Position numbers and translations under genes: made by a program. From Bugula neritina (Eukaryota > Animalia > Bryozoa), in assembly GCA_964035545.1 (NCBI GenBank), contig OZ037772.1, positions 3,129,538-3,193,537 of the forward strand: a stretch of DNA of 64,000 nucleotides. The letters run 5' to 3'. Below, piece by piece: positions 12,989 through 63,210 of the stretch (position 1 is its first letter; each line of letters begins with the position of its first letter). The notes beneath the pieces are model-generated. The model saw only the letters and a list, made by a program, of their open reading frames with translations. It was not told the DNA's origin and made no database searches.

Positions 12989-13143
12989 GTGGGAGTGGCT
13001 TGGGTAGATGTGGGCGGAGTTGAACACAGGTTCCGGTGCGATGCGGAAGGAAACAGATATGGTGTGAATGACGACGAGTATTTAACTTTCAACCAGATGG
13101 AGTACTTGAATCAGGATAACCAATTAGTGTATGCTAACATCAG
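12989..13143 (+). other. Orphan exon-like segment of unknown protein
   Basis: ttgacag acceptor, open frame VGVAWVDVGGVEHRFRCDAEG...YANIR, possible AG|GT donor at 13143. Confidence 0.45.
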
Positions 13144-13150
13144 GTGTGTT

Positions 13151-13990: not shown

Positions 13991-14165
13991 AGGGCTAATA
14001 ATAAATATTATGTCCAAAGCTTGAGGAGAAATCTGTGAACAAGTCAACAGTAGACATTGTGACATCCTTGGCAATTAAAATAACAAACTTCTTTATACCA
14101 ACACTAGCTTGTTCTATTCTACTTTGAATACCCATATTATGAATATCTGACGTATGTTTTATCAG

Positions 14166-20930: not shown

Positions 20931-21132
20931 CGAAGTGTGAGAATTCCACGCTAGTGACCTGCCACACACAGTGCGTGTGTTGCGAGTGCAAAATATTATT
21001 AGCAAATGATGTTAGCGTTAAACTTTACTGCTCGCCTACGGACGTTTGTTTTTAAACAGCGTCACCGGGCAAAGTAATTTGGATATTATAAAAGCGGAAA
21101 TGTAAAATTTATAAAACTGTTTTAATTCAGCT

Positions 21133-21680
21133 CAGTATATTATGTTATACAGTATACTATGTTATACAGTATACTATGTTATACAGTGTATTATGTTATA
21201 CAGTATATTATGTTATACAGTATATTATGTTATACAGTATATTATGTTATACAGTATACTATGTTATACAGTATACTATGTTATACAGTATACTATGTTA
21301 TACAGTATACTATGTTATACAGTATATTATGTTATACAGTATATACTACGTTATACAGTATATACTACGTTATACAGTATACTATGTTATACAGTATACT
21401 ATGTTATACAGTATATTATGTTATACAGTATACTATGTTATACAGTATATTATGTTATACAGTATGCTATGTTATACAGTATATTATGTTATACAGTATA
21501 CTATGTTATACAGTATATTATGTTATACAGTATACTATGTTATACAGTATACTATGTTATACAGTATATTATGTTATACAGTATATTATGCTATACAGTA
21601 TACTATGTTATACAGTATACTATGCTATACGGTATACTATGTTATACGGTATACTATGTTATACAGTATATTATGGTATA
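21133..21680. repeat. 17-bp minisatellite (atgttatacagtatact), ~32 copies
   Basis: Direct reading. Confidence 0.97.
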
Positions 21681-21776
21681 TTAATCAACATACAAATGAG
21701 ATGCTCTTGTCAGTCTATTATTATACACTGGAACTGGGTTACTCTCTCACCTTCCCTCACCTTAGCTTAGCTAGAC

Positions 21777-22860
21777 CAGTGCTTCCCAAGTGATGAAGAT
21801 TTTTATTTCTAAAAATTTCACAGTTTGTTACCAGCTCTTTGAGCTCTTGCCTTGTTTTCAAGATTACATGTACTGCATATGTATAACTACAACTCCTTCA
21901 TTTTATGTAGTTCATATATTTATCCACACTACACTCTACAATCTAAGTTTACTTCTACATCCATGTGTCTATTATTCACTCTACCCTAGCTGCTACCCCT
22001 CCTACTAGGAATGATCGAAGGTTCGGAAGTTTTAATTGGAAGCAAAACCAACAGGAAGTTTAAGCAGCAATGCAAGCTCATTTCTATAAACTATACACAC
22101 TGCATACATATAGTGGATATATTTCCTGTGTTCCAGTGCAATCATCACATCATCACTCTTCATTATAGCAGCATCAATCCTTTCAAAGCTGAACTCAAGT
22201 TGTGACCTTGACATAATTCTATGATACAACTATCCTCACACTCAATAAATTATTAGAAAAAGAACCTGTTCCAGAGATATCTTTCAAAAAGCATTTCTGC
22301 AAATATATTTGAACTTTTAAGATTATTTGACAGTATTTCTCTGAGCTACCTTCATAAGAGAGTTACATGAGAGTGTCATTGAGCTGGTTTGCAGTGAAGA
22401 ATGATTTTTTGAGTTCTGTGTTTTCACAAGCAAACTCTACCCACACATTGCTGACTACACTAACAGTTTTAGTGCCATTCAGCACCAGGTTTTTATATAA
22501 GATAGGATTCCTTCAATTAATATGCTAATGGTTAGGAATCACCAAATCAAACTGCCTTGACCTGCAAAGTGACCTACAATGTACAGCTTGTCAAAACCCA
22601 AGTCAAACTTAAGCAAGCTGCAGCACAAATTCACCAGCTTCAGCCATCATATTAATAATTGAACTGCTCTGTGCTTTTTACATGCATAATATAATAATCA
22701 TAATCTTATATTATAATCAAATATACTAGAACAAATATAGACTTCTATTGTATATTATGCCTATCATTCATAAATTGCACTTATAGAAAGAGGGGAACTT
22801 AATAGTAAACAGTTATGGAAGGGGGGGATGGTATGGTATGAAAAAGGTTCGGAACCACTG
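21777..22860 (-). mobile_element. Non-autonomous hAT-like DNA transposon
   Basis: Imperfect TIRs CAGTGCTTCCCAA / TTCGGAACCACTG; flanks agctagac / tgctagag (degenerate 8-bp TSD); right end is the reverse complement of the left ends at 25634 and 28334. Confidence 0.6.
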
Positions 22861-28100: not shown

Positions 28101-31100
28101 TTCTGTAGAGAGAAACTGAGAAATATTACAAGAACCTGTTATTTATTATTTTATTACTAAAGTGAGTTATGTAACAGTAAAAGAGGAAGTAAGTTTGCCA
28201 GCATTAAGGTTTGTGTGAGACAGAAGTGGATAGTGCAGGAGTTTATATTCTCACTGTTATGTTGAATATTTAGTATATTTCATCCTTCAAGTGTCTGTTT
28301 CCTTGAAAAGATGGTATAGGCATAGCTTTAACTCAGTGGTGTCCCACCTTCTTCATACCATCCTCCTTTTTATGATTATTTTCTATTAAGTTTTCCGCCT
28401 TTTTGATAAAATTGTAATTTCATTTATAAAGAAAATCTGGGACAGGTTGTTTTCCTAATAACTCATTGAGTGTAGAAAAAAGCACTTTGTGTTTGACATG
28501 AATTAGTGTCTGCCACAGCTTCAGTTCAGCTTTGAAAGCATTGATGCTGGTATTAAAAGCAGTGAGTTGATGATTATACTCATTCATTTTAGGTTCAAAG
28601 TTTTTAGTACAGCAAATATAACTACTAGGTATGCAGTAAATAGTTTATGGAGATCAGTTTGACTGGCTGCAAAAACTTCCTGTTGGTTTTTACTTTCAAT
28701 AAACCTTTTAGCCTCCATTTGTAGTAGGAGGGGTAGCAGCTAGAGTAGAGTGAATATTAGACACATGGATGTAGAAGTAAACTTAGATTGTAGAGTGTAA
28801 TGTGGATAAATAAATGAACTACATAAAACGAAGGAGTTATAATTGTACATATTCATGTAACCTGGAACACAAGGCAAGAGCTCAAAAAGCTGATAACAAA
28901 CTCTGTGAAATTTTAGAAATGAAAACCCCTAAAAACTCAAATTTCCTGTGAAGGGGAAATTCCCCCAAGGTTGAGAGCAACTGCTTTAATTTTTTCAACT
29001 ATTTCATTCCAAGTGCAGTGATTAATGAGCTAACCTCTGACATCTTTCTAGTCCAACCAACTGTCTAGTTATTACATAGTATGTGTATAGTGATACATCA
29101 TCAACCTGTAGGTACAGGTAGTAGGTGTAGAATAAGTACAATGTCATATCTATAACAATGTTTTTATAAATAGTGTGATTTTATGTATACAGAGGAGACA
29201 GTAGCATCCCATGACTTGGCATCTTTGAGTGATTTGTCTTGTGAATTACGAGAAAGTCTGACTGGTGGAATAGAGACTCTGTCTGAGAAAGTTGCAGAGT
29301 TGAATGACATCTCAAAGGATGCCTGGAAAGAACTGAGTAAAATAGAAGATGAAGTGAAGAAGATGGTTGCCAGAGTAAACGCTGTAGCTGACGCTCAGGT
29401 ATGCTGACATGGTGATATCATCTAATGTATTTCTGTTTGTCTGAAATTAGGTTTTGCATTTGGTCTTTGAGTTGTAATCAGAAATGAATTTTATTTGCCA
29501 TTAAAGTATTATCATTCTGTGAACAAGTAGCAGTAGTCATTCATCACATGTTACTCAGTGCAGAGGAACCTGTCAATACAGATGACTCACTCATCCTTCT
29601 GCAACTGTAAATCACTCACACAGAGAGGTTGGCTAGGCGAGTGATTGACAGGTGTCAGAGGGAGACTAGTCACGTGATGTACTAGCTCTCTGCTCTGTAT
29701 AGAGTGTCACGTGACTGAGTCATTGTCCACTCAGTGGGTGATCTGTTATTTTCATTTCAAGTGTAGAGGTTGTGAGGTGCAGATGTGGTCACACTGTGTT
29801 ACTATTTATTAGATAGAAGAGATTAGAAAGAAAGCTACAAACCTGAGGCTAGAAATATATGGATATTTGAAGAGCTGCACACAGATAGTGGATAATTATA
29901 GAATAGAGCTGGCCTTGAGTAAGACAATGGGCAGACAGTCTCTGCTGGACACAGTACAACATGCAGTTGATAAGTTCAATGATGCAGGGATTGTGAGAGA
30001 CTACAAAGAGATGAGTGAGAAGATGGAAAAGGCTACAGATATTGGTGTAATAGAGAAGTGTGTACTTCCAGACAGCATCTTGGTACCAACATGTAGGTGG
30101 AGTCTATAAATAGTAACACTAACTATAAATAACTTTCTGCTTGTAATTAGTTGAGTTGTTTTCACTGAGTATTTAATAGTATTTAAACATCTTTTAGTTT
30201 TAAGTTTGAAAAGCTGTTCCCACCTCCTCAGGTGATGAGATTCTCAAGTTATAGAATTGTTATTTTGTTGTTGCAGACAGTGAAGACAGTCTGGGACTGA
30301 AGCTGCTGCAGCCACCATCTTCTCTACAGTCTGATGGACTTCCTGTACGTGACTGGTGTGACACAGTAAACATCTCAGCTGATGGACATCTGATGTGTGG
30401 GACACTAGAAGGTGTAGAAGTAATAAATAGAGAGACTCTGGGTACTATCAGCTCAGTGAAACACACCAACACTACACGGTGGTGGGAGATAATCCAACCT
30501 GAAGGGGTGATGGTTGGCAGCTCGTATAACGAAGAGGAGGAAACAGCTGAAGTCTCACTTCTTGATCCGAACTCCTTTGAGAAGACTCGCTCTCTCTACA
30601 AGCAGCCAGTAGATGTACTCACTTACTATAGAATAGCTCAGCACGACTCACTGCTCTGTATTGTAGACTGGAGAGAGAAACAGCTGGTAGTCTGCAACCT
30701 AGTAGACAATAAAATACAGAAGTTCCCACTTCCTGAGATGGAGATCCCTCACCCTGTATGCATCCTCCCAGACTCAACTCTCCTCATAGGAGACTGCACT
30801 GCAGATGGTGCAGTGAAAAGATATAAAGTGGAGAACACAACTCTCACTCTAATGTGGGAATTCCCTCACATCTCACATCCAACTGGTATTTCCTTTGATC
30901 CAACATCTGAACTGATTCACATCTGTACACTGTATGGACCTCTCCTCATCCTCTCACTTGAAGGTAAATACTCTGTTTATTATAGTAAGTTTATTTATTT
31001 TATATATAATTATAATAAACTCTCTATTCAGTCTTCCTTTCCAAGGGTTCACCTGGTAGAGTAGAGGATAGGGACTCCACACTGCTGAGTGAGTTGGTGC

Positions 31101-31779
31101 TGCAAGGGGTTCAAACCCACCTATCAGCATGTCTAGTTAGTATACTATGCAAGTGTTTTACAGTAATTTTAGAGGTGCTCAGTCTAACAACTGTACAGAC
31201 TGCCAGCTACACATGAGTTATGAGTTGTAGTTTGACTTCAGTCTAGTGCTGCTGTTGTTTTGGTCATCAGATAATTTAAATATGAATTATTTGATACTTT
31301 TTGACTGCCATTACTGAGACTATGTAATTTGATGATGGCTGGTAGAGCAGTGTTTGCTGGTGGGACTCAGGTGGCTGTGGTTGGTTCTTGTTAAGTATTT
31401 TATATGTGATAATGTTGGAGTAGCTGCAGTGGTATTAGAAGTACACACGTGGGTGTGTTCTTGTTAAGAGCCACAGGCTAAGTTTGTGAGTCAAGGTCAA
31501 TATTGTTGTATAATGAGACACTATTTTCTGCTCTATTTGAGTATTTACTTCATGCATGTAACCTGCTTAGTTGCATCTTTAAAGGCAGTCTGTCTGTTTC
31601 TCTCAATACACACTAACTGATACAATATGATGCTATTATTTACAGGTCAACTGGTGCTTACTGTTCCCAGAGAAAGTCTTGGTGTGAGTGACTGGGTGTG
31701 GGACATTGCTGTGTGTAACAGAGACACAGTGTTTCTAGCATGTAGAGATGGTTTGAGGAGATACACAATAAAATACTAA
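25145..31779 (+). CDS. TRIM/RBCC-type E3 ligase (RING, two B-boxes, coiled coil, C-terminal NHL-like beta-propeller), ~619 aa; exons 25145-25326, 27512-27692, 27890-28079, 29193-29398, 29813-30092, 30277-30963, 31646-31779
   Basis: RING CGYC..LPCLHVYCMRC..IRCAYCR; B-box CDVC..AAVFCLESQKKLCQQH; B-box CEHHKEEQL..VCSKCHQIFCMRC; propeller-like PHPVCILPDSTLLIGD and PTGISFDP; all GT-AG junctions phase-compatible, total 1860 nt, no stops. Confidence 0.88.
25634..26153 (+). mobile_element. hAT-like MITE in TRIM intron
   Basis: TIRs CAGTTATTCCCAACC / GGTTGGGAACTACTG; internal similarity to 28334-28983. Confidence 0.7.
28334..28983 (+). mobile_element. hAT-like MITE in TRIM intron
   Basis: TIRs CAGTGGTGTCCCACC / GGTTGAGAGCAACTG; 8-bp TSD ctttaact / ctttaatt. 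Confidence 0.7.
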
Positions 31780-31959
31780 ACTTATCAGCTACAGTCTACT
31801 AATAATCAGCTCAGTCAGTGAGGTCCTGAGAGATGAATTGGATAATATTTGTCATCAACATAATTATTTCATCACAATTCATCAATACACACACTCTGTA
31901 TTTATAGTTAGATATGAGATGTTTTACTGTATCAAATATGTGTTGTTATTTTACCATCT

Positions 31960-33610: not shown

Positions 33611-34420
33611 AGTCTCGCTAATATAAAATTAAGAGCACAACTTGCAAGATTTAACTAATTTAACTTGGTTCATATTATGATGTTAATATGTTGACATTTA
33701 TAACCTCTGATATATTTCTATGTTTATAACCTATCAATATGCTCTGATCTACAGTCTTTATTGCCATTCAAGGTGTTGCTCACTGCTGGTCAACCCCATT
33801 AACCCCCAACTTACTGTCTACATAGAAAACTGTCTACTCTCCCTCCATGGTACATAGCTCATACAATGTGTATAATTATTTGCTTTTGCACATTCATTAC
33901 ATAAAATACCAGCCATTGTGCTAAAAGTAGAGTTTTGTTGTAGTCTCACATATTGGAACATGGCCTTAAGATTAGTAGTTTCTGAGGCTTTTATTAAGCT
34001 AATGCAGGAGAAAATTGCTAAGAATTTACTGCAGTGAATCTTTGTATAAACATTACTTATGAAATGCATATCTGTGGAATATTTGATCTACTCTGTATCA
34101 TGTAAACTAACTTACACACAAGTTATATACAGCTACTACTTGATAAGGAAGAAATAGACTTACACTAACAGAGTTATTGACATGAAAAAGTAAATAATAT
34201 TTAAATTGTGATGACTAAGTAAGTGGATGAGTCATAAAACCAGTCAAAAAATAATTTCTACAAACAAACTTTATTGAGTAAATGTGACTACAGAGTCTTG
34301 ACAACATAGCAGAGTGAATATGTTACATAATCATTACTAATCAACATCAAATACTGCATATAAGCAGTGCAAGTCCTGTGGAATATATAATATTATACTG
34401 TGAGTAGAACACAATAATAT

Positions 34421-37250
34421 GGCAACATACTGAAATATACTGCGACACATTGAAATATACTGCAACATACTGAAATACACTCTGACATACTGAAATAGAC
34501 TGCAACATACTGCAACATACTGCAACATACTACAACATACTGCAACATACTTCAATATACTGCGACACCTTGAAGTATACTGTAATATACAGAATTGTAC
34601 TGTAAAATACTGAAACATACGACAACATTATGAAATATACTGCAAGATATTGAATTACACTGTAACATACTGAAATATACTGCAACATACTGAAAGATAC
34701 TTCAACATACTGAAAGATACTTAAAGATATTGAAACATACTGAAATGCACTGTAGGATATTGAAATGCACTGCAACACATTGAAATATACTGCAACACAA
34801 TGAAACATACAGCAACATACTGAAATATACTGCGACACATTGAAATATACTGCAACATACTGAAATATACTGCAAGATACTGCAACATACTGAAAAACAC
34901 TGCAACATACTGCAATATACTGCAACATACTGCAACATATTGAAATACACTGTCACATATTGAAATACACTGCAACACATTGAAATATACTGCAACACAC
35001 GGAAACATACGGCAACATACTGAAATATACTGCGACACACTGAAGTATACTGTAATATACAGAAATGTACTGTAAAGTACTGAAACATACGGCAACATAC
35101 TGAAATATACTGCGACACATTGAAATATACTGCAACATACTGAAATATACTGCAAGATACTGCAACATACTGAAATACACTGTGACATACTGAAAAACAC
35201 TGCAACATACTGCAATATACTGCAACATACTGCAACATACTGCAACATATTGAAATAAACTGTAACATATTGAAATACACTGCAACACATTGAAATATAC
35301 TGCAACACACGCAAACATACGGCAACATACTGAAATATACTGCAACATACTGAATTACACTGCAACATACTGAAGTATACTTCAACATTCTGAAATATAC
35401 CTAAAAATATTGAAACATACTGAAATACACTGTAGGATATTGAAATACACCGCAACACATTAGAATATACTGCCACATACCTAATTATATGGTAACCTAG
35501 TGAAATATGTTGCAAACTACTGAAATATACTGCGACACCTTGAAATACACTGCAATATACTGAAATATACTGCAAGATACTGCAACATACTGAAATACAC
35601 TGCGACATACTGAAATACACTGCAACATACTGCAACATACTGAAATACACTGCAACACATTGAAATGTACTGCAACACACTGAAGTATACTGTAATATAC
35701 AGAAATGTACTGTAACATACTGAAACATATGACAACATACTGAATTGTACTGCAACATACTGAATTACACTGTAACATATTGAAATACACTGCAACACAT
35801 TGAAATACACTGCAACATACTGAAATATATGGTAAACTACTGAAATATAGTGTAACAAATTGAAACATACCGCAACATACTGAAATACACTGCAACACAC
35901 TAAAGTATACTGTAATATACAGAAATGTTCTGTAAAATACTGAAACATACGACAATCTACTAAAATACACTGCAACATATTGAAATACATTGCAACATAC
36001 TGAAATAGACTTAAACCTTCTGAAATAAACCCAAAAATATTGAAACATACTGAAATACACTGTAGGATATTGAAATACACCACAACATATTGGAATACAC
36101 TGCAACATACCGAAATATATGGTAACCTACTGAAATATGTTGCAAACTACTGAAATACACTGCAACATACTGCAATATACTGAAATATGCTGTAGCATAT
36201 TGAAGTATACTGTAATATTATACAGAAATGTACTGTAACATACTGAAACATACGTCATTATACTGAAATGTACAGCAAGATACTGAAATGTAATGCAACA
36301 TACTGAAATATACCGCAACATACTGCAACATACTGAAATACACTGTAACATAATGAAGTGCACTGCAACACACTGAAACATACGGCAACATACCGAAACA
36401 TACTGTGACATACTGAAACATACTGCAAGATACTGCAACATACCGAAATGCGCTGTGACATACCGAAATGCACTGCAACATACTGCAACATACTGCAACA
36501 TACTGAAATACACTGTAACATATTGAACTACACTGCAACATACTGCAACATAGTGAAATACACTGAAACATATTAAAATACACTGCAACACATTGAAATA
36601 TACTGCAACACACTGCAACATACGGCAACATACTTAAGTATACTGCGACACATTGAAATATACTGCAATATACTGAAATATACTGTAACATACTGCAAGA
36701 TACTGCAACATACTGAAATACACTGTGACATACTGAGATACACTGCAACATACTGCAACATACTGAAATACATTGTAACATATTGAAATACACTGCAACA
36801 CATTGAAATATCCTGCAACACACTGAAACATACGGCAACATACTGAAATATACTGCGACACATTGAAATATACTGCAACATACTGAAATACACTGCAACA
36901 TACTAAAATAGACTGCAACATACTGCAACATACTGCAACATATTGAAATACACTGTAACATATTGAAATACACTGCAACACATTGAAATATCCTGCAACA
37001 CACTGAAACATACGGCAACATACTGAAATACACTGCAACGCATTGGAATATACTGCAACATACTGAAACACACTGCAACATACTGCAACATACTGCGACA
37101 CATAGAAATATACTGCAATATACTGCAACATACTGAAATACACTGTGACATACTGAAATACACTGCAACATACTGCAACATACTGAAATACACTGTAACT
37201 TATTGAAATGCACTGCAACACATTAAAATATACTGCAACACGCTGAAACA
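34421..37250. repeat. 2.8-kb satellite of variant 10-mers (tgcaacatac / tgaaatatac / tgaaatacac)
   Basis: Strict 10-bp register visible in the blocks; source of many spurious Cys/Val/Tyr ORFs. Confidence 0.97.
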
Positions 37251-37284
37251 TAATTATATTATATTTAACATGTACTATTGATGA

Positions 37285-37904
37285 CCTCACTGAGCTGATT
37301 ATTAGTAAACTGTAGGTGATAAGTTTAGTATTTTATTGTGTATCTCCTCAGACCATCTTCACATGCTAGAAACACTGTGTCTCTCTTATACACAGCAATG
37401 TCCAACACCAAGTCACTAACACCAAGACTTTCTCTGGGAATCGTTACCATCAGTTCACCTTTAAAAAATATAATGTCAGATTGAATCAGTTTGAGACAAA
37501 CAGACAGACTACAGTGATATCACAACAGCTGACACAACTACATGCAAGTTTTTAGTTTCCAGTATAATATAGTAACTGAAATATATTCGATAATAATACA
37601 ATAAATTTCAAATATATTTCTCACTCAGAAAGACTTCCTTTAAAGATGCAACTAAGCAGATTATATATATAATATAAGTATTACATACATGAAGTAAATA
37701 TTCTAACAGAAAATAGTGTCTCATTATACAACTGTATTGACCTTGACCCACAAACTTAGCCTTTGGGTCTTATATAGAACACACCCACATGTCTACTTCT
37801 AATAATACTGCTACTGCAGCTACTCCAACATTATCACATATTAAATACTTAACAAGAACCAACCACAGTCACCTGAGTTCAACCAGCAAACACGGCTCTA
37901 GCAG
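37285..37904 (-). pseudogene. Inverted paralogous fragment of the TRIM gene: part of last intron, terminal exon (37325-37458) and start of 3' UTR
   Basis: Reverse complement similar to 31339-31825; 134-nt exon GELMVTIPRESLGVSDLVLDIAVYKRDTVFLACEDGLRRYTIKY* with intact AG acceptor. Confidence 0.9.
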
Positions 37905-45990: not shown

Positions 45991-46690
45991 TCTAATGATA
46001 ATCTTGATCATAATCAATATGAATATCAATATCATGTTATACTTATTCAATAATTATAACTGATTGATTCTTATTCATATTAATAATGAATAAAAATTAT
46101 ATTAACACTACAACTTACTTAATTAGAGTATTAGTATTAGTATTACTATTACTATCACTTACAACTTGCTTATGCAAGAGAATTAAAATATCTTTAAAGC
46201 GTAGCATCCTTTTCAAGCAAAATAAGGATAATAAGTTTCGTCAAATTGAGTTAAAAACTACAACTTATAGGTCACAAGTATAAAGCAAAGTCATCACTAA
46301 TCCTAGTGGGTACGGCAAGCATATAGCATAATTTATTTTACAATGCGACAAGATTATCTAGACGGTGCGCTTACGCCTCTCATTGTAGTTAAGCAATACC
46401 AATTGTATGGTTTTTATGACTTTAAAATCCGTTTTTGAGAAGCAAGGGCCTAGATAGAAATTAATGATCGATATTGACTCGCTAAGAGTACTCATGTAAA
46501 CCCGCAAACTACAACTTTTAACTTGACCGCAAAGCTGGAAGTACGATAAGCGTCGCCGTATTGATTTCAGGCGAATTTTAGTTGATTTCTTTCAAACTGC
46601 TGAGAAGTAATATTTGCTTCCATTTTATGTCTGTATCAGCCATCAGGGCTATCGCGATACAATTATAAATGTTCTTAATTCAATCAATAT

Positions 46691-46995
46691 TGTGGTGGCT
46701 CGTGGAGCTACCAGCAACACAATACGCGAGGTTGCATATTGACCCGGAACAATGTATTAGCCAATTAGCTAAGCTGTTGTATTAGTAATAGTAGCCGCTT
46801 CGCGCTACTAGCTCAGTTGAGGATAGTGCTGTAAACTAAATAGACGTGCGTATCATTACTGTTGTACATTGGATTTTTATTATGTATTCTTGTATTAAAT
46901 ATAACGATATCTGCTCGACTTAACTGGTGAAGTTTCTCTAGTGTTAAATAGACTCTCTTGGTGGCACATCAACCCTAAATCTGAAAACTATAACA
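46691..46995 (+). repeat. Gypsy 5' LTR
   Basis: Direct repeat of 53828-54132. Confidence 0.97.
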
Positions 46996-46996
46996 G

Positions 46997-47014
46997 TGGT
47001 GGCAGCGGTGGGAT
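46997..47014 (+). promoter_or_regulatory. Primer-binding site, tRNA-Leu (AAG/TAG type)
   Basis: TGGTGGCAGCGGTGGGAT is complementary to the conserved metazoan tRNA-Leu 3' end ATCCCACCGCTGCCA-CCA. Confidence 0.9.
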
Positions 47015-47028
47015 AGTGTATATCAAAG

Positions 47029-47895
47029 ATGGAGACTGAAAATGCTAGAATGCAACCACCCCCAGTAGAAGGTGAGCGTAGAAATGCTGTTAATCCTGTG
47101 AATCGTGAAGGAGAAGAAGCTTATAGACATTGCTTGAAAGCTCCCACCTTTACTGGGTCGGAAGATGTCGAACAATTTATACAAGAACTTAGAGAGGTAA
47201 TGGAAGTTGCTCAATGGCCGCATAGAGTGGCCCTTATCCAATTGCGGAGGGCGGTGACGGAGCAAGCCAAGCCGTACGGAGTGGGAACGGACGTAGACGG
47301 CATACTGGCTGCACTGCGGGCCCGTTTTGGCACCTCCGTCATAGACGCTAGGACCAAGCTGGAGAGATTGTGCCGCACCCCGCGGACCTCGCTGCAAGAA
47401 CATGCCGCGACGGTGAAGAAGCTGGCGCAGATTGCATATAGCGATCTGCCAGCACAACACCAAGAGCGTTACACCTATGACGCCTTTGTCCAGTCCCTAA
47501 ACGACCTGGGCCTAGACCATCACCTACGAGCTAAAGGGATAACCAGAATAGAGGATGCCCTGAAGGCTGGAGAAGCTTACCTGTTGGCTACCCAAATGCA
47601 TCGAGCACAAAGGAACCCCCCAGTAGTTGGAGTCAGCGCTGCCAGGGCTACGACAGGCTCCGGAGCCCTCCCGCTGGAAGCCGAAGTGGACCGCATGGTA
47701 GAGATGCTGGGACAATTGGTAACCATTCTGGCCGGTGCTGGCCCCGGTCAGGCCTTGCGGATGCCCCCAACATCTGTGGGGCAGGGCTGGAGTAGCGCTG
47801 ATCAGGACCAGGGACAGAAAGGACGACCCCAATACCAGGGGGCGTTAAACTGTCACGGCCCGCGGACACACTCCCTCCCCGCGGGCCGCAACTAA
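47029..47895 (+). CDS. gag: Gypsy Gag (288 aa, no CCHC knuckle)
   Basis: ORF directly after the PBS; KAPTFTGSEDVEQFI capsid-like start; helical capsid-like composition. Confidence 0.85.
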   Translation: METENARMQPPPVEGERRNAVNPVNREGEEAYRHCLKAPTFTGSEDVEQFIQELREVMEVAQWPHRVALIQLRRAVTEQAKPYGVGTDVDGILAALRARFGTSVIDARTKLERLCRTPRTSLQEHAATVKKLAQIAYSDLPAQHQERYTYDAFVQSLNDLGLDHHLRAKGITRIEDALKAGEAYLLATQMHRAQRNPPVVGVSAARATTGSGALPLEAEVDRMVEMLGQLVTILAGAGPGQALRMPPTSVGQGWSSADQDQGQKGRPQYQGALNCHGPRTHSLPAGRN

Positions 47896-47901
47896 AGGAG
47901 T
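47844..47901 (+). promoter_or_regulatory. Candidate -1 programmed ribosomal frameshift signal
   Basis: G_TTA_AAC in gag phase, followed by 10-bp stem CGGCCCGCGG/CCGCGGGCCG; loop ACTCC can pair with downstream GGAGT; -1 frame is open to 48305. Confidence 0.75.
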
Positions 47902-50900
47902 ATGGTGGAACGCGCCGTCGTCTGTCCGTACGGACACGGCGGAACATTCCACCCGAGTGGCAGGTACCACGCAGGACTAGTAGGCCCGCACAACGGCCCA
48001 GTACCTTCTCCCTGCCACTCGCTAACCGGTTTCACCGGTTACCTCGGGAAGAGGAGCCCGCCACGGAAATGGAGCCAGAAGGCCCAGTGGAGAGGCCCAA
48101 ACCCCGCCGGCACCAACCTCGCCGCCGGAAGCCCCGTAAACCACGGGTGAAACCCCCGCCGTCCTGTCAAACCAGGACAGCACATGCGGGGGGGGGTGAA
48201 AGTACAACCACATGGAGAGAGCTATTTCCTACCCGGAAAGGTGGCCGGCAACGCCGTCACTTTCCTGCTCGACTCCGGTTGTACTACCAACCTTCTCAGT
48301 CGTAGAGTCTTTGAGGCACTGCCCCGCCGGGACAGGGATAGAGTACGACCGTATACTGGAGAACATGGCACCCTGGCAGACGGGTCATGTATCCCCTTTT
48401 ATGGTATTATCGAGCTCCCTGGGCGTGTCCGAGATCAGGCTGTACAGGAGACCTTTATCATAGGTCAACTGGAAGAAGATGCTATCCTCGGAATGCCCTT
48501 CTTGAAGCAGCACCAGTGCCGAATAGATTTCAGTAAGTCGGTGGTGCTGATGGGCGGGCGAGAACTCGCCTGTGTGGATAAGTTTGGGCGTCCCCTGGTG
48601 GGCGGTGTTCAGGTAGTTCGAAACTGCACCGTACCCGGACGCTCCAGAGCTACCATCCACTGCCGAGTGAACAGCAACCGGATAGCCAGGCTCGGGGTCG
48701 TTGAAAGCGCGCACGAAAAGATCCAACTCGCCAGTAGTTTAAACCGACTAACTGAGCGAGGGGAGGTCTTAGTGCAGTGCGTCAACCCCTTTACCGAGCC
48801 CATTGAGCTCCCAGCTGGGTCAATGCTGGGCCGGTTCCATTTCGTCCAGGAAGAGGACGTGGGCCCGTCGCTGGGTGACGCGACGGAGGCACCCCCTCGA
48901 CACCCTATTCAGGGACGAGGGGCAGTCCCAACACATCTCCGGGAGTTATACGAAACAGCCAGTGGCGGCTGCGCGAGTAACAGAGAACGCCAAGCTATGG
49001 CCAAGTTACTACGCGACTACGGTGATGTGTTCAGCAGCGGAGAGCATGACGTGGGACTGACTGGAATTGTCAGACACGAAATACCGCTGACTGCAGGGAC
49101 AGTCCCTGTCCGGCAACCCACGCGCAGGCTGGGGCCGGAGAAAGAGAAGGAGGTTAGCCAACAAGTACGGGATCTTCTGGACCGGGGACTGATAGAGCCC
49201 GCCCATAGTGCGTGGAGCTCGCCAGTCGTACTGGTCCGGAAGAAAGACGGCAGTTGGCGGTTCTGTGTGGACTACCGCAAACTCAATAGCGTAACCATAC
49301 AGGACGCCTACCCTCTACCTCGTATTGACGAGTCATTGGACGCCCTAGCCGGCAGCAAGTACTTTAGTACGTTAGACTTGCTAAGCGACTACTGGCAGGT
49401 TCCTCTGAGTCCCGACGCCCAAGAGAAAGCGGCGTTTATCACACGGGACGGTTTGTGGAAGTGGAAGGTGCTGCCCTTCGGGTTAACCTCCGCCCCAGCC
49501 ACCTTCCAGAGGCTGATGGAACAAGTCCTTAGCGGACTCCATTGGAAGACACTGCTAGTCTACCTCGATGATGTCATCGTAATCTCTCCAGACTTCGAGA
49601 CACATGTCAGTCGTCTGCAGGAGGTTTTCGAGAGACTCCGAGGTGCCGGTCTTAAGCTCAAACCTTCCAAGTGCGCTCTGTTGCAGCCGGAGGTCAAGTA
49701 CCTGGGGCACAGTGTCGGTCGAAACGGCGTGGCAACGGATCCCGAAAAGGTACGGGCAGTAGAAGACTGGGTCACCCCCCAAGACTTGACCGGACTCCGG
49801 GCTTTCTTGGGGCTGGTAGGGTATTACAGGCAATACATACCAGACTTTGCGGGCATAGCCCAGCCGTTAAACCGGCTTACCGCAAAGGGAGTGACGTGGC
49901 AGTGGACTCCAGTCGAACAAGAAGCGTTCGACCGCCTCAAGGGCTGCCTCCTAACGGCGCCCATCTTGGCCTACCCAGACCCCACTCTGGAGTACATCCT
50001 AGACACGGACGCCAGTGACCAGAATGTTGGCGCTGTGCTGTCACAAGTGCAGGAAGGCCGAGAGGTAGTAGTAGCCTACTACAGCAAGTCTCTCTCTCCC
50101 GCTGAACGAAATTACTGCACTACCCGCAAGGAGCTGCTGGCAGTAATCAAGTCAGTGAAGCACTTCAGACCATACCTATAGGGCAGGAAGTTCCGGCTGC
50201 GTACGGATCATGCCTCGCTGATCTGGTTGTGCAGGAGAGCAGAGCCCTCTAGTCAGGTCGCCCGGTGGCTCGAAATCTTAGCTGAATTCTCGTACCGGAT
50301 CGAACACCTACCGGGCAAGAGACACAGCAATGCGGATGGGTTGAGTCGCCGACCTGACGGAGGTTGCAAACAGTGTCTCAACATTGAGAGGAGAGATGGA
50401 GGTCCCCCACGATGTGAGTTGGAGACGCTGGCTCATCACGGAGCACCGTTTGACTGGGATCAAGGTCAACTCAGGCAAAGAGTTGACGAGTCCCCGGAGG
50501 ATGTACAAAACCTCCGCGCCAACCCTGTACTGGCCGGTAATGTTCGAGAGCTGAAGAAGCTCCAAGAAGAGCTGCCTGGAGTCGTGGCAGACATATACCG
50601 GGCCAAAAGGGAAGGGCGACGACCCAGCGAGGAACGCATACGACAGGGATGCGCCGAGTTCCGGCTATACTGTCAGCGTTGGGACTCGCTGCGGATCGGG
50701 CAGGATGAATTGCTAACCATCTCTCTAGCCGCCAGCGGCAGACACCCGGAAAGGAAGAGGGTAGTCTGCCCCACAGCCATCCGCCGTGAGTTGATTTGGG
50801 ATACCCACAAGCAGGCCCACGCAGGGGTCAAGCGAGTGATATCCAAATTACGACTCCGGTGGTATTGGCCGCAGATGGAGCGTGACGTCCGGCTCAGAGT

Positions 50901-52470
50901 CAAACAGTGTGAGATCTGCCAGGCCAGTAAGCATAGCCGCCCCCCTGGTGAAGCAGGACGGCGGAGGCTATATGCTGGTAGGCCCTGGCAAGTAGTCGCT
51001 GTAGACCTGGTCGGACCCATGCCCCTGACCCCCAGAGGCAATAATTGGATTCTAGTACTAACCGACCACTTTACTAGGTGGGCGGATGCTCTGGCTATCC
51101 CAGATGCATCAGCCCCAACAGTGGCCAGGGCGCTAGACCAACATGTATTCTGTTATTTTGGGCTTCCCGAACAGATACACTCTGATCAAGGCGCTCAATT
51201 CCAGTCTCAACTGATGAGCGACCTTTGCCACCTCTGGGGAGTAAATCAGAGCAGGACCACCCCCTACCACCCTCAAGGTAACGGGGTGGTGGAGCGCAAT
51301 AACCGGATGCTAGGTGATGCACTCCGGAGTCTCCTCCTTGGACGAGGTCAAGAGGAATGGGATACGGTGTTGCCGCAAGTCATGCGTGCATATCGTAGCA
51401 CCCCACACACCAGTACTGGTGAGACCCCAAACCTCTTGATGCTCGGGAGAGAGACTCGTGTCCCTGACCATCTCACCTATCACGTTCCAGAGCAAGACAA
51501 CTCGGTTCACGAGTATGCCAGTGAACTAGTGGAACGGATGAAGGCCGCACACGATATACTGCGTCAACAGCAGTGGAAGGTGCGGCACGAAGATTCCGAT
51601 GAACCCCCTCTCTATCAAAGGGGAGATAAGGTGTGGATGGTCAATTACCGTAGGCGCCGCGGACAGGCTGACAAGCTGAAGCCTAAGTTTGTAGGCCCCT
51701 ACGTGGTCGTCGAGGCTATGCCCAATCATACGTACAAGATTGAGCGCTCAGGACAGGTGTCTATCCAGAATGAGTCTCGCTTGAAACCGTATTGGGCTAG
51801 CCCTGACGGAGTGGGAGAAGCCCCCCCGTTGTTAGAGCCCAGGAGGCAGACAACGACGCGCGGGCGACGGCGGCATGGACCTGAATACGAAGTGGTCATA
51901 CCGCGGGAGGAAAACTTGGTGAGAGAGGAGCGGCAGCTTTTGTCAACAGAAGCGTGTCCGCCACCGCCAAGTCTAATTCCTTCACTTCCAGAAACCGAGC
52001 CGGTTCCGGAAGTGCAAACCCCCACGGAGGGAGGGGCTCCATCCGGAGAACAAGAAGAGGTGACCACTAACGGTGAAGTAGAGACGCCATTAGAGGCCCC
52101 TACTAACGAACCGGCAAGCGTGTCACCCCCCCTAGAAAGGGGACAGTGTACGAGGAAACCCCCACCGTATTTGAAAGACTTCATATGTGACTGCATTAGA
52201 AGCGGCGCACATGAAAGTCTAGGGGAAAACCGTACGATAAAATGTTGGAGTTGTGAACCCCACGCAAATATCAACTTTTGCGAGGGCGGAATAGTGGGAG
52301 GAATTAATGCGCGTAAAGCAAATAGTTCCGACCTCGTGCCTCAGAAACGATGCTCAGCCTTTTCTTATGCTGACATCGCCAAAGGCAGACTTATCTCACA
52401 ACCAGCTCCAACCTTACCAAGAACGTTGAGTATGGACATTAATACCGAGTTCCCAGGTAAGCCAGTATAA
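47850..52470 (+). pseudogene. pol: Gypsy pol (protease, RT, RNase H, integrase) with one extra G in the G9 run 48188-48196 and TAG at 50179-50181
   Basis: LLDSGC protease; LPFGL and YLDD RT; DTDAS and TDH RNase H; HHCC plus DLVGP/SDQG/VERNN integrase; ORFs 48184-50181 and 50227-52470 share a frame. Confidence 0.95.
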
Positions 52471-52487
52471 GTCTTGTATTCCTATTC

Positions 52488-53561
52488 ATGGAAACGGGCT
52501 CGATGCCAGTAAATTCTGAACTAATTCAGCAGATTGAATCAGAATTACTGGGAACCACGTTTCATGTGAATGACGATGAAGACACTGTAATGGCCGACGG
52601 TCTGTTAGACCTGGAGCTAGACACTGTTCTTGGTCAGTCCACACATGATTCATCAGTTCCTCGAGTGCATTCCAAAAGCTGTGACTCTCAGGCTAGCAAC
52701 GGTCGACAGTCACTAGAATTATGTTGTAAAGATCCACCGCGATCTAACAATAATTCTACTTTTGTAGACACACTCGCGCCCGTCTCTACGGGCATGCCTT
52801 CTCTAGAGATGGCATGGGACCCAGAGCCGGCCCCAACAACTCCTACCACCAGGCAACTGCCACCCCAGTTGGAAGCAACCTCCAACTGGATTACCCCTGC
52901 CACAGAGAGAGAAATCAGGACCCATCAAGGAGGTGAGAGTAATCGTGAATGCAACCTCTGCCAGCAGCGATTCACAACCCACCGCAGACTAAAGGTGCAC
53001 TTGCCGCAGCACTACATCACCACTTTCTGCCCTTGCGGAGAATATAGCTATAATCGTGATTACCTACTGAGGCACCAACGTACTATGCAGTGCTATCAAG
53101 GACATGTCTATGAAGTAGACGAATCATCATATCCTGCCTTTCTCAACGCCATCAAACCACTCATCACTGACTCAGCTCGGCTATCTCGCCTGGAGCAAGG
53201 CTTCCCTTCCCCGCGACCCATCATCTCTGGAGCCGCAGATAAACCTACACAGTCTGCTAACTCTCCACCTCACAGTCCTATACGCATGCCGCATACCTTT
53301 CCTCGTGTCGTACTACAGAGAGTAGACACAAATGCGTATACACTCCCTCCTCCTCTTCCATCCTCAGAGCGGAAACGACACAGGCAGCCAACTTCCTCTC
53401 GCTCGTCCCCCTGGGCCCGTAACCTACGTGAGGTAGAAGCTAGGGCGCATGACTTGGAGCAAGAAGTGTACAGGCTGGCCCCACGGGTACAGGCAGCCTC
53501 CAGTGAACTCAAATATTTACAGGAGTCTATTAAACGCATGAAGCGTGCGGCCCGCAGTTAA
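52488..53561 (+). CDS. Gypsy ORF3: zinc-finger / coiled-coil accessory protein (357 aa), not env
   Basis: Inside the LTR boundaries; CNLCQQRFTTHRRLKVHLPQH (C2H2) and CPCGEYSYNRDYLLRHQRTMQC (second finger); acidic N-terminus; RKRHR basic patch; C-terminal heptad helix; no signal peptide or TM segment. Confidence 0.8.
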   Translation: METGSMPVNSELIQQIESELLGTTFHVNDDEDTVMADGLLDLELDTVLGQSTHDSSVPRVHSKSCDSQASNGRQSLELCCKDPPRSNNNSTFVDTLAPVSTGMPSLEMAWDPEPAPTTPTTRQLPPQLEATSNWITPATEREIRTHQGGESNRECNLCQQRFTTHRRLKVHLPQHYITTFCPCGEYSYNRDYLLRHQRTMQCYQGHVYEVDESSYPAFLNAIKPLITDSARLSRLEQGFPSPRPIISGAADKPTQSANSPPHSPIRMPHTFPRVVLQRVDTNAYTLPPPLPSSERKRHRQPTSSRSSPWARNLREVEARAHDLEQEVYRLAPRVQAASSELKYLQESIKRMKRAARS

Positions 53562-53815
53562 CTCGAGTCTACCTACAACTCCCTACTACTCATTCCCCTA
53601 CCTCTCTCTGGCATTCCCTACCGTAATGGTGGCACGTACTCTATATGTAGATAGGACCTTCTCTTGCTTATTACTTAGTGCACGTTATATATACCTGTAT
53701 ATTTTACCAGTTGTTGTCTTTTTTTTTATATACTTTTATACTGTTCTCTTACCCCCCCACAACGAAGTATACGTTTTTATGTGAATCTTATTTTATCAGA
53801 AAGTGGGCTTTCTGC

Positions 53816-53827
53816 TGGAGGGGGCAG
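53816..53827 (+). promoter_or_regulatory. Gypsy polypurine tract
   Basis: TGGAGGGGGCAG before the 3' LTR. Confidence 0.8.
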
Positions 53828-54132
53828 TGTGGTGGCTCAAGGAGCTACCAGCAACACAATACGCGAGGTTGCATATTGACCCGGAACAATGTATTAGCCA
53901 ATTAGCTAAGCTGTTGTATTAGTAATAGTAGCCGCTTCGCGCTACTAGCTCAGTTGAGGATAGTGCTGTAAACTAAATAGACGTGCGTATCATTACTGTT
54001 GTACATTGGATTTTTATTATGTATTCTTGTATTAAATATAACGATATCTACTCGACTTAACTGGTGAAGTTTCTCTAGTGTTAAATAGACTCTCTTGGTG
54101 GCACATCAACCCTAAATCTGAAAACTATAACA
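53828..54132 (+). repeat. Gypsy 3' LTR
   Basis: Direct repeat of 46691-46995, followed by ATAT. Confidence 0.97.
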
Positions 54133-54262
54133 ATATTATGAAATAAATAATGTAGGATATTCAATTTTGACTATGTAGAATAATCTCAATCTGAATAAGT
54201 ATTATTTATTTATTGTAACACTTGCACTTCGTCTTACTCTTACTCTTAGACAGATAACATAC

Positions 54263-54569
54263 TGTTATAATTTTCAGATTTAGGGTTGATGTGCTATCCA
54301 GAGAGTCTATTTATCTATTATAGAACTGCACCAGGATAAGTCGAGTGAACGAGTATATTTTACACACAACTATACATTATAAAAACGCGATACATTATTC
54401 CCAAACAAGTTACACATCTAATCTATTTCACACTCTAGCTTCGACTGAGTTAGCAGCGGGAAACTACAATTGCTGCTAACTATCAACTACGCTAATTGGC
54501 TATCCATTGTTCCGGGTCAATTACGCGACCCTACATGTTGTGCTGCTGGTAGTTCCACGAACCACCACA
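54263..54569 (-). mobile_element. Solo LTR of a related Gypsy family, inverted
   Basis: Ends are the reverse complement of the adjacent LTR ends, with a diverged middle; own 4-bp TSD ATAC (54259-54262, 54570-54573). Confidence 0.92.
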
Positions 54570-54650: not shown

Positions 54651-56960
54651 AGTTATATTACTAGTTTATATTACCAAGTTATATTACCAAGTTATATTAC
54701 TAGTTTATATTACCAAGTTATATTGTTAGTTTATGTTACCAAGTTATATTACTGGTTTATATTACTAGTTTATATTACCAAGTTATATTACTAGTTTATA
54801 TTACCAAGTTATATTACTAGTTTATGTTACCAAGTTATATTACTAGTTTATATTACCAAGTTATATTACTAGTTTATATTACCAAGTTATATTACTAGTT
54901 TATATTACCAAGTTATATTACTAGTTTATGTTACCAAGTTATATTACTAGTTTATATTACCAAGTTATACTACCAAGTTATATTACTAGTTTATGTTACC
55001 AAGTTATATTACTAGTTTATGTTACCAAGTTATATTACTAGTTTATGTTACCAAGTTATATTACTAGTTTATGTTACCAAGTTATATTACTAGTTTATAT
55101 TACCAAGTTATATTACTAGTTTATGTAACCAAGTTATATTACTAGTTTATGTTACCAGTTTATGTTACCAAGTTATATCACTAGTTTATATTACCAAGTT
55201 ATACTACCAAGTTATATTACTAGTTTATGTTACGAAGTTATATTACTAGTTTATGTTATCAAGTTATATTACTAGTTTATGTTACCAAGTTATATTACTA
55301 GTTTATGTTACCAAGTTATATTACTAGTTTATGTTACCAAGTTATATTACTAGTTTATGTTACCAAGTTATATTACTAGTTTATGTAACCAAGTTATATT
55401 ACTAGTTTATATCACCAAGTTATATTACTAGTTTATATTACCAAGTTATATTACTAGTTTATGTTACCAAGTTATATTACTAGTTTATATTACCAAGTTA
55501 TATTACTAGTTTATATTACCAAGTTATATTACTAGTTTATATTACCAAGTTATATTGTTAGTTTATGTTACCAAGTTATATTACTGGTTTATAATACCAA
55601 GTTATATTACTAGTTTATATTACCAAGTTATATTACTAGTTTATATTACCAAGTTATATTACTAGTTTATGTTACCAAGTTATATTACTAGTTTATATTA
55701 CCAAGTTATATTACTAGTTTATATTACCAAGTTATATTACTAGTTTATATTACCAAGTTATATTACTAGTTTATGTTACCAAGTTATATTACTGGTTTAT
55801 ATTACCAAGTTATACTACGAAGTTATATTACTAGTTTATGTTATCAAGTTATATTACTAGTTTATATTACCAAGTTATATTACTAGTTTATGTTACCAAG
55901 TTATATTGTTAGTTTATGTTACCAAGTTATATTACTAGTTTATATTACCAGTTTATGTTACCAAGTTATAATACTAGTTTATGTTACCAAGTTATACTAC
56001 TAGTTTATGTAACCAAGTTATATTACTAGTTTATATTACCAGTTTATGTTACCAAGTTATAATACTAGTTTATGTTACCAAGTTATACTACTAGTTTATG
56101 TTACCAAGTTATATTACTAGTTTATGTTACCAAGTTACATTACTAGTTTATGCTACCAAGTTATATTACTAGTTTATGTTACCAAGTTATATTACTAGTT
56201 TATGTTACGAAGTTATATTACTAGTTTATATTACCAAGTTATATTACCAGTTTATGTTACCAAGTTATATTACTAGTTTATGTTACCAAGTTATATTACT
56301 AGTTTATGTTACCAAGTTATATTACTAGTTTATGTTACCAAGTTATATTACTAGTTTATGTTACCAAGTTATATTACTAGTTTATGTTACCAAGTTATAT
56401 TACTAGTTTATGTTACGAAGTTATATTACTAGTTTATGTTACCAAGTTATATTACTAGTTTATATTACCAAGTTATATTACTAGTTTATGTAACCAAGTT
56501 ATATTACTAGTTTATGTTACCAGTTTATGTTACCAAGTTATATCACTAGTTTATATTACCAAGTTATACTACCAAGTTATATTACTAGTTTATGTTACCA
56601 AGTTATATCACTAGTTTATATTACCAAGTTATACTACTAGTTTATGTTACGAAGTTATATTACTAGTTTATGTTACCAAGTTATATTACTAGTTTATATT
56701 ACCAAGTTATATTACTAGTTTATGTAACCAAGTTATATTACTAGTTTATGTTACCAGTTTATGTTACCAAGTTATATCACTAGTTTATATTACCAAGTTA
56801 TACTACCAAGTTATATTACTAGTTTATGTTACGAAGTTATATTACTAGTTTATGTTATCAAGTTATATTACTAGTTTATATTACCAAGTTATATTACTAG
56901 TTTATGTAACCAAGTTATATTACTAGTTTATATTACCAAGTTATCTTACTAGTTTATACT
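54651..56960. repeat. 2.3-kb satellite; 26-bp unit made of two related 13-mers (ttactagtttat(a/g) + ttaccaagttata)
   Basis: Direct reading. Confidence 0.97.
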
Positions 56961-57058
56961 GCTAGTATTCAACAACTACCCTCCAGCACATCTCAACTCT
57001 GACGCAACTAAACTGACTAATCATCTGAATAGTTTATAGTTTTTGTTGAACTCTTCAG

Positions 57059-62768: not shown

Positions 62769-62815
<47 letters not shown>

Positions 62816-63018
62816 CATATATATAGATATATATACATTATATATATATAATATATATATAATAAATTATTATAATAATTATTATATATATATATATATA
62901 CATACATATATATAGATATATATACATTATATATATATAATATATATATAATAAATTATTATAATAATTATTATATATATATATATATATATACATACAT
63001 ATATATATATATATATAC

Positions 63019-63116
<98 letters not shown>

Positions 63117-63210
63117 CATATATATAGATATATATATACATTATATATAATATATATATATATATATATACATACATATATATATATGTATATATATATA
63201 CATTATATAT
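62769..63210. repeat. (TA)n compound microsatellite
   Basis: Direct reading. Confidence 0.97.

What the first reader, a model, noticed from the sequence alone, without database searches (positions are those of the whole stretch)
52488..53561. Gypsy retrotransposon encoding its own zinc-finger transcription-factor-like protein in the env slot
Seen: an intact 357-aa ORF starts 17 nt after the pol stop and lies within the LTRs. It has an acidic/hydrophobic N-terminus (DDEDTVMADGLLDLELD), a canonical C2H2 finger (~52950-53012), a second CxC...H finger, a Pro/Ser linker, a basic RKRHR patch and a C-terminal coiled coil. It lacks a signal peptide and TM helix, so it is not env. It is intronless and undamaged, whereas pol carries lesions. 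Known: third ORFs in Ty3/Gypsy elements are usually env or uncharacterised, and complex retroviruses encode transactivators. Inference: an element-encoded nuclear regulator (LTR transactivator, anti-silencing factor or integration tether), a candidate undescribed accessory system.
Basis: partly seen in the sequence, partly recalled or inferred. Interest (0 to 1): 0.85.

Follow-up and report, generated by a model that had tools for sequence, protein, structure and literature searches.

The report
Gypsy retrotransposon's own zinc-finger gene
A young jumping gene (a Gypsy retrotransposon) of an animal carries, where retroviruses keep their envelope gene, an intact extra gene for a two-zinc-finger protein that selection keeps unchanged; the protein likely works in the nucleus to promote the element's own expression, and relatives of it also appear as probable host genes in moss animals (bryozoans).

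Summary
A 357-aa ORF (52488-53561) starts 17 nt after the pol stop, inside a 7,442-nt Gypsy element with 99%-identical LTRs. Variants among copies are 30 silent to 10 replacement (pN/pS 0.11-0.14), so it is under purifying selection. It has no membrane segment, so it is not env. It belongs to a family with no Pfam model (146 held proteins, 50 clusters) built on a roughly 115-aa domain: a C2H2 finger, a 5-residue linker and a CxC-x12-H finger (AlphaFold pLDDT 94; only weak matches to C2H2 pairs), usually followed by a C-terminal heptad helix. One distant sister element carries a homologue directly before its PPT and LTR. Function is untested. Best guess: nuclear regulator at the DNA or chromatin level (0.45); rival: CERV/Rev-like RNA exporter (0.25). 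This scan noted a similar ORF in a sea-urchin Gypsy element before (unchecked). Interest 0.6.

The parts
46691..46995 (+). 5' LTR, 305 nt, TG..CA; preceded by target-site duplication ATAT (46687-46690)
   Evidence: an empty-site contig in run X2 skips 7,446 nt = element plus 4
46997..47014 (+). primer-binding site, tRNA-Leu type
   Evidence: sequence; the same 12-mer is assigned to Leu tRNAs (1 mismatch) in supplements of PMC13524379; identical 18-mer in L067
47029..47895 (+). gag ORF (no Pfam match, no zinc knuckle found)
   Evidence: 40% identical over 150 aa to gag of L067
47802..48305 (+). N-terminal pol frame, -1 to gag; slippery-like GTTAAAC at 47844 followed by a 10-bp hairpin (likely programmed frameshift)
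   Evidence: hairpin z -2.25; 47811-48050 is the most structured of 46 windows, z -5.9; same overlap layout in L067
48151..50181 (+). pol: protease, reverse transcriptase, first part of RNase H; ends in a premature in-frame stop; begins after a frame change
   Evidence: Pfam Asp_protease_2, RVT_1, RT_RNaseH
50182..52470 (+). pol: rest of RNase H, integrase (H2C2, core, SH3-like) and a low-complexity tail; order PR-RT-RH-IN = Ty3/Gypsy
   Evidence: Pfam
52488..53561 (+). ORF3, 357 aa: acidic disordered N-terminus, zinc-finger-pair domain, Pro/Ser linker, basic patch, C-terminal helix
52878..53222 (+). conserved zinc-finger-pair domain (aa 131-245): W134, helix, C2H2 finger, 5-residue linker, CxC-x12-H-(C) finger, hydrophobic-x-V-D strand, helices
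   Evidence: alignment of 79; model pLDDT 94.2, pTM 0.84
53409..53555 (+). C-terminal long helix (aa 308-356), predicted coiled coil
   Evidence: model pLDDT 85-97; heptad score above shuffles in 50 of 70 members with a tail of 80 aa or more
53817..53827 (+). polypurine tract
   Evidence: sequence
53828..54132 (+). 3' LTR, 3 mismatches to the 5' LTR; followed by ATAT (54133-54136)

Best explanation
ORF3 is a conserved accessory gene of a Gypsy retrotransposon lineage, kept by purifying selection, whose product likely acts in the nucleus as a DNA- or chromatin-level activator of the element's own expression. Shown: the gene, its place between pol and the polypurine tract, selection on its protein, the family and its zinc-ligand pattern. 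Predicted: a compact two-finger domain, disordered flanks and a long C-terminal helix. Inferred: the basic patch takes it into the nucleus, the helix makes it a dimer or oligomer, the basic face of the finger pair binds element DNA, and the acidic, hydrophobic N-terminus recruits co-activators or counters silencing. It probably works in trans, so a copy with broken pol could still supply it.
For: Selection: 30 silent against 10 replacement variants among the 40 of 50 rows shown for ORF3, pN/pS 0.11-0.14, binomial p 3e-9 or lower; no indel listed; the integrase segment gives 11:3. Family: 60 hits of 2,052 candidates, 214 representatives. Second element: L067, the 1 true hit of 131 pattern loci, has a 35%-identical core (E 5e-16) in an ORF ending 21 nt before PPT-LTR-PBS-gag-protease. 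Layout of a transcription factor: N-terminal region net negative in 15 of 21 cluster representatives, finger pair, basic patch, heptad helix. Finger-1 helix positions +2, +3, +5 are Arg/Lys in 64, 56 and 59 of 79 rows. The top structural rows are mostly DNA-bound C2H2 pairs (Kaiso Z 3.7, rmsd 2.7, 57 aligned), and a homologue's language-model neighbours include C2H2 and fruitless-type clusters (0.94): leads only.
Against: No function was tested. Structural matches are weak (best Z 3.7, none at 5; Foldseek E 0.3) and cover only the fingers. The His-to-Cys linker is 5 residues in 120 of 130 matched cores, not the 7 of canonical DNA-wrapping arrays (recalled), and helix position +6 is Val/Leu/Ile in 58 of 79. 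The basic helix residues stay alike although the LTRs of the window and L067 share nothing alignable, which fits backbone, RNA or protein binding as well as LTR recognition. The acidic segment M35-L44 also fits a nuclear-export consensus. ORF3 itself lacks the acidic hydrophobic-xx-LL motif seen in 5 of 21 distant clusters. Element context is shown for only two members. Transcription of ORF3 is not shown.
Confidence: 0.45

Rival explanations
1. ORF3 would be a CERV/Rev-like RNA regulator: it would bind unspliced element RNA through the finger pair, oligomerise through the helix, and carry the RNA out of the nucleus.
For: Same slot and similar parts as CERV (candidate NLS, candidate NES, leucine zipper, Cys-rich finger; PMC10309623 passages). 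M35-L44 fits the class-1a export pattern (recalled) in ORF3 and in 21 of 31 close homologues that cover it. Non-canonical linker. gag-pol RNA folds better than shuffles over most of its length. Donor-like sites at 47070 and 52455.
Against: No likeness to CERV was tested or seen; CERV is a 5-exon product, ORF3 has its own conserved ATG start. The export pattern is broken in 10 of 31 and such patterns are common by chance. No spliced joint in the one RNA run (very low cover). Probable host genes with the domain fit a general nuclear factor.
Confidence: 0.25
2. ORF3 would be an integration or nuclear-import helper that tethers the integrase complex to chromatin, as a chromodomain does in chromoviruses.
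For: It adjoins integrase; P0180 (894 aa) begins with a stretch like a Gypsy pol tail (recalled motif) in frame with the domain, which hints at fusion in one element.
Against: Two searches of longer proteins found no fusion (0 of 1,748 and 0 of 7,990 candidates; weak by the tool's own note). P0180 has no Pfam integrase match. In the window ORF3 is in another frame than pol.
Confidence: 0.1
3. ORF3 would act on the host: a mimic or competitor of a host zinc-finger family, blunting a defence or changing cell state to the element's advantage.
For: Probable host genes carry the same domain; a Watersipora two-domain model groups with ORF3's branch (97/85).
Against: No target known; the host genes may as well be domesticated copies; their genomic context was not seen.
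Confidence: 0.13
4. ORF3 would be a passively carried host fragment or an env remnant without use to the element.
For: Lower third-position GC than pol (0.47 against 0.59-0.62) and no excess RNA folding over most of it mark it as a separate module; host relatives exist.
Against: Purifying selection among copies; full-length homologues at about 50% identity with the same start and end; same slot in a distant element; no membrane segment (3 of 146 members exceed hydropathy 1.6).
Confidence: 0.04

Closest known systems
CERV of Cer1, a Ty3/Gypsy element of C. elegans (PMC10309623; abstract, outline and passages read)
   Same: [quoted passage not shown]
   Different: CERV is made from a 5-exon spliced mRNA sharing exons with gag, has a C4-type loop and M and G domains, is restricted to nematodes, and is shown to export RNA. 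ORF3 is a single frame with its own ATG, a C2H2 plus CxC-H finger pair, and no tested function. Homology was not tested.
Additional ORFs of plant and fungal LTR retrotransposons: Grande gene23, Retand, PvRetro13, Boty (PMC7264820; parts 1-2 of 3 of the text read)
   Same: Extra gene between pol and 3' LTR, present in most copies and conserved like other element genes; some products are nuclear; proposed to act like retroviral accessory proteins.
   Different: Those are antisense, in plants or fungi, and no C2H2 domain is reported for them in that review; ORF3 is sense-strand in an animal element.
Env of errantiviruses (PMC13524379; passages and a supplement search)
   Same: Same slot and orientation in animal Ty3/Gypsy elements; some use the same Leu primer site.
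   Different: Env is a membrane fusogen; ORF3 has no hydrophobic segment and carries zinc fingers. 'zinc' and 'C2H2' do not occur in that paper's main text.
Classical C2H2 (Kruppel-type) finger pairs: Kaiso, ZBTB7A, tramtrack
   Same: Finger 1 fits the C2H2 pattern; the best structural rows are mostly such pairs (Z 3.0-3.7, 50-57 residues).
   Different: Below Pfam cut-off (15.6 against 25.2 bits); 5-residue linker, CxC second finger with variable fourth ligand, and conserved flanking helix and strand elements that make one roughly 115-aa domain.
Retroviral Tat/Tax/Rev-type accessory regulators (named in PMC7264820; details recalled)
   Same: Small element-encoded nuclear regulators from the 3' part of the genome.
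   Different: No sequence or fold match in the viral structure library (best E 0.3); analogy only.

Membership tests
Ty3/Gypsy LTR retrotransposon | pol order PR-RT-RH-IN | tested here: met
   Pfam order
Ty3/Gypsy LTR retrotransposon | LTRs with TG..CA, PBS, PPT, target-site duplication | tested here: met
Ty3/Gypsy LTR retrotransposon | placement in a named clade by RT phylogeny | not tested
   no reference RT set was fetched
Env (errantivirus or retroviral) | signal peptide and membrane anchor | tested here: not met
   highest 19-residue hydropathy 0.63; 3 of 146 members above 1.6
Env (errantivirus or retroviral) | fusogen fold | tested here: inconclusive
   the only folded parts are a 115-aa finger domain and one helix; no fusogen among listed rows
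Conserved additional ORF (accessory gene) of LTR retrotransposons | present across copies and under purifying selection | tested here: met
   all 30 bins covered by 479 contigs of run X2; 30 silent to 10 replacement
Conserved additional ORF (accessory gene) of LTR retrotransposons | same slot in diverged sister elements | tested here: met
   one case, L067; context of the other homologues not seen
Conserved additional ORF (accessory gene) of LTR retrotransposons | no similar genes outside elements | tested here: not met
   4 of 30 clusters hold Bugula or Watersipora gene models; three of these proteins share a separate N-terminal domain; their genomic context was not seen
Conserved additional ORF (accessory gene) of LTR retrotransposons | transcribed and translated | tested here: inconclusive
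   4 contigs of depth 2-3 in one RNA run; contigs show no strand, and DNA may be in the run
Classical tandem C2H2 transcription factor | C-x2-C-x12-H-x3-H finger | tested here: met
   finger 1; C155, C158, H171, H175 in 76, 79, 78, 78 of 79 rows; Pfam score below cut-off
Classical tandem C2H2 transcription factor | canonical 7-residue TGEKP-type linker and second C-x2-C finger (recalled definition) | tested here: not met
   linker 5 in 120 of 130, CxC in 130 of 130 matched cores
Classical tandem C2H2 transcription factor | sequence-specific DNA binding and transactivation | not testable with these tools
   needs SELEX, ChIP, reporter assay
CERV/Rev-type RNA export factor | NLS, NES and oligomerisation element | tested here: inconclusive
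   motif patterns only
CERV/Rev-type RNA export factor | sequence or fold homology to CERV | not tested
CERV/Rev-type RNA export factor | required for export of unspliced genomic RNA | not testable with these tools
   bench work

The most novel reading that the evidence does not exclude
An old lineage of marine-invertebrate Gypsy retrotransposons encodes its own transcription factor, built on an undescribed two-finger domain, to switch on or shield its LTR, and hosts have domesticated that domain more than once into genes of their own: a retrotransposon as both user and source of a zinc-finger transcription-factor family.
Probability: 0.25. Interest if true: 0.85.

Novelty: new variant of a known kind. 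Interest (0 to 1): 0.6.

Why it matters
LTR retrotransposons without env are usually treated as gag-pol only and dependent on host factors. A selected, widespread zinc-finger gene in the env slot points to retrovirus-like self-regulation in animal Gypsy elements beyond the one tested case (CERV). The small, well-modelled domain can be assayed directly, which bears on the open question of what conserved additional ORFs do (PMC7264820). Its probable host relatives offer a case to test whether retrotransposons seed host zinc-finger families or capture them.

Tried and rejected
No whole genome is held, so copies and host paralogues could not be mapped. Locus searches with ORF3 or integrase found nothing in viral or metagenome contigs; the PBS pattern found 0 viral contigs; the motif pattern gave 131 loci (8 + 84 + 39) of which 130 were pattern-only chance matches. 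Searches for longer or fused forms: none (weak). Fold searches gave no significant match; this does not show a new fold. The Atlas did not answer for ORF3 itself. RNA run X1: sparse contigs, no joints; it cannot show strand, level or splicing, and no silent control stretch was laid on purpose. Splice-like sites: the donor at 47070 is out of phase with the two AGs just before the ORF3 ATG (my reading of the sequence); not pursued. The fold upstream of the ATG (z -4.1) was dropped as an IRES or response element because 6 of 46 windows in pol reach -4 or lower. Rfam: 0 matches. The acidic hydrophobic-xx-LL motif (5 of 21 against 0.7 expected) was chosen after seeing some of these sequences, so its p-value is inflated. 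'ORF3 intact, pol broken' was rejected as evidence. P0172 and P0193, ordinary multi-finger proteins among the weak hits, were left out of the alignments. Eight paper searches showed no description of this family; Repbase, Dfam, GyDB, most subscription journals and preprint supplements could not be searched and may hold it.

Full report
The element. The window holds a 7,442-nt LTR retrotransposon at 46691-54132. Its LTRs are 305 nt with 3 mismatches, begin TG, end CA, and are flanked by ATAT. A contig of run X2 joins the flanks across 7,446 nt, which fixes the borders and shows an empty site. A Leu-type primer site follows the 5' LTR and a purine tract precedes the 3' LTR. Pfam gives protease, RT, RNase H, integrase in Ty3/Gypsy order. 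gag and pol overlap in the -1 frame with a slippery-like heptamer and hairpin, as in the sister element L067. pol is broken twice in this copy: a frame change within 48151-48305 (not resolved by the 12 of 13 indel rows shown) and an in-frame stop at 50179-50181 that looks private to this copy. The host is not given; AT-rich DNA and bryozoan relatives of ORF3 suggest a marine invertebrate (inference).

The ORF. 52488-53561, 357 aa, 17 nt after the pol stop, in another frame. It is far beyond chance (about 3e-7). The full-length model has two confident parts, residues about 121-240 and the helix 308-356, with disordered regions between.

Selection. 479 contigs of X2 cover all 30 bins of the ORF3 stretch; no indel was listed. 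Of the 40 variant rows shown (50 in all, best supported kept), 30 are silent and 10 change a residue; pN/pS is 0.106 or 0.138 by the transition weight, binomial p 2e-11 or 3e-9. The pol rows give 6:5 and 11:3. These are single-site counts from contigs of mixed copies and alleles, not a codon model, but the excess is large.

The family. 60 proteins of 2,052 candidates, eleven of them full-length at 49-74% identity with matching start and end; 214 representatives at E 0.001, 150 listed. A profile of the core found it whole in 146 of the 210 proteins then held, in 50 clusters at 55% core identity. The core is W134, a helix, C155-x2-C158..H171-x3-H175, five residues, C181-x-C183-x12-H196, a variable fourth ligand (Cys five residues on in 70 of 130), then V210-D211 and helices. 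No Pfam family reaches its cut-off for ORF3. The core model has pLDDT 94.2. Solved structures match only the fingers and weakly, viral models not at all significantly. 50 of 70 members with a long enough tail have a heptad helix above shuffles; 61 of 70 have a basic patch by a lax pattern without control.

Context in other elements. Of 131 loci from a motif scan, one, L067, holds the domain (108 bits). There an ORF of at least 726 aa with a 35%-identical core ends 21 nt before a purine tract, a 719-nt LTR, the same primer site, gag (40% identical) and protease. I read this as a Gypsy element assembled through its collapsed LTR, with the gene in the same slot (inference; integrase is not on the contig). 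P0180 begins with a pol-tail-like stretch (recalled motif). For all other homologues the context is unseen.

Host relatives. Of 30 clusters looked up, 4 hold named gene models from Watersipora subatra and Bugula neritina, two labelled as isoforms; 26 have metagenome or run-assembly sources only. Three of the named proteins from the two genera share a further N-terminal domain that ORF3 lacks, as orthologous host genes would. In a 37-row tree of cores (LG+G4; 25 of the 62 rows left out, among them most long branches) one Watersipora model groups with ORF3's branch (97/85) and the others lie on the side of L067; holding them together is rejected (AU p 0.0016; the group was tested after a first tree was seen, long branches remain, no root). 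So the domain has crossed between element and host at least twice, or was captured more than once; direction is open, repeated domestication being the simpler reading.

Mechanism. Shown: gene, slot, selection, family. Predicted: fold and helix. Inferred: a nuclear, oligomeric, nucleic-acid-binding regulator. I favour action on DNA or chromatin (0.45) for the acidic N-terminus (net negative in 15 of 21 cluster representatives), the basic finger-1 helix, likeness to DNA-binding C2H2 pairs (weak) and the probable host genes. Against: short linker, hydrophobic +6 position, and helix residues that stay alike while the LTRs do not. The RNA-export rival (0.25) rests on CERV and an export-signal pattern in 21 of 31 close homologues. 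Tether (0.10), host-directed mimic (0.13) and passenger or env remnant (0.04) follow. How ORF3 is expressed is unknown; RNA run X1 gave four low-depth contigs and no joint.

What is known. CERV occupies the env slot of Cer1 and is a tested nuclear export factor (PMC10309623; abstract, outline, passages). Conserved additional ORFs, some nuclear, are reviewed for plants and Botrytis (PMC7264820; two of three parts read). A survey of env-bearing animal Gypsy elements has no mention of zinc fingers in its main text (PMC13524379; passages, supplement search for the primer site only). Passages of PMC12440569, PMC13269885, PMC8220671 and PMC10547256 showed no such gene. Eight searches found no description; repeat databases could not be searched. 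Earlier unchecked notes of this scan report a C2H2/RS ORF in the env slot of a sea-urchin Gypsy element, antisense zinc-cluster genes in fungal ones and a Cys/His ORF3 in a euglenid one; I could not test whether the first is the same family, and sequence look-ups gave nothing.

Verdict. Real, selected, not env, not a canonical tandem C2H2 factor, not confined to elements. A new variant of a known kind (env-slot accessory regulator) on an apparently undescribed domain. Interest 0.6; the boldest reading has probability 0.25 and interest 0.85.

Noticed in passing
window 46687-54136: The insertion is polymorphic: one contig of run X2 joins the two flanks and skips 7,446 nt, element plus target duplication. 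Many diverged copies are in that run (7,571 contigs laid, repeats of the flanks included).
   Followed up: yes
window 54261-54569 (-): An older inverted solo-LTR-like sequence, 73% identical to the element's LTR, lies 128 nt after the 3' LTR; a contig of X1 continues it with a similar polypurine region, so a sister family probably exists in this host.
   Followed up: partly
window 47802-48050: Likely -1 frameshift signal at the gag/pol overlap; strongest RNA folding of the element. gag-pol RNA folds better than shuffles over most windows, most of ORF3 does not.
   Followed up: partly
window 47029-47895: gag shows no zinc knuckle, whereas gag of L067 has one.
   Followed up: no
P0146, P0209, P0215 (N-terminal 60-80 aa): Bugula and Watersipora gene models share an N-terminal domain with no Pfam match in front of the finger pair; the two Bugula models have consecutive locus numbers; P0061/P0214, P0087 and P0215 carry the finger-pair domain twice.
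   Followed up: partly
window 52590-52619 (ORF3 aa 35-44): The conserved acidic segment reads equally as an activation-domain motif, an export signal, or a clathrin-box-like motif (all recalled patterns); conserved in the close subfamily only.
   Followed up: partly
window 2580-7891 (+): A BEL/Pao retrotransposon: gag with DUF1759 and zinc knuckle, pol with RT, Peptidase_A17 and integrase.
   Followed up: no
window about 11760-11920 (+): Exon-sized match to the NRF (nose resistant to fluoxetine) N-terminal domain, E 7.5e-8, probably a host gene exon.
   Followed up: no
window 34300-37400, 54660-57000, 13000-14050, 21100-21800, 62770-63160: Long minisatellite and microsatellite arrays that produce spurious long ORFs.
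   Followed up: no
window 30255-31064 (+): 269-codon open frame with no Pfam match at E 0.01; lies near interspersed inverted repeats at 31339-31818 / 37286-37904.
   Followed up: no
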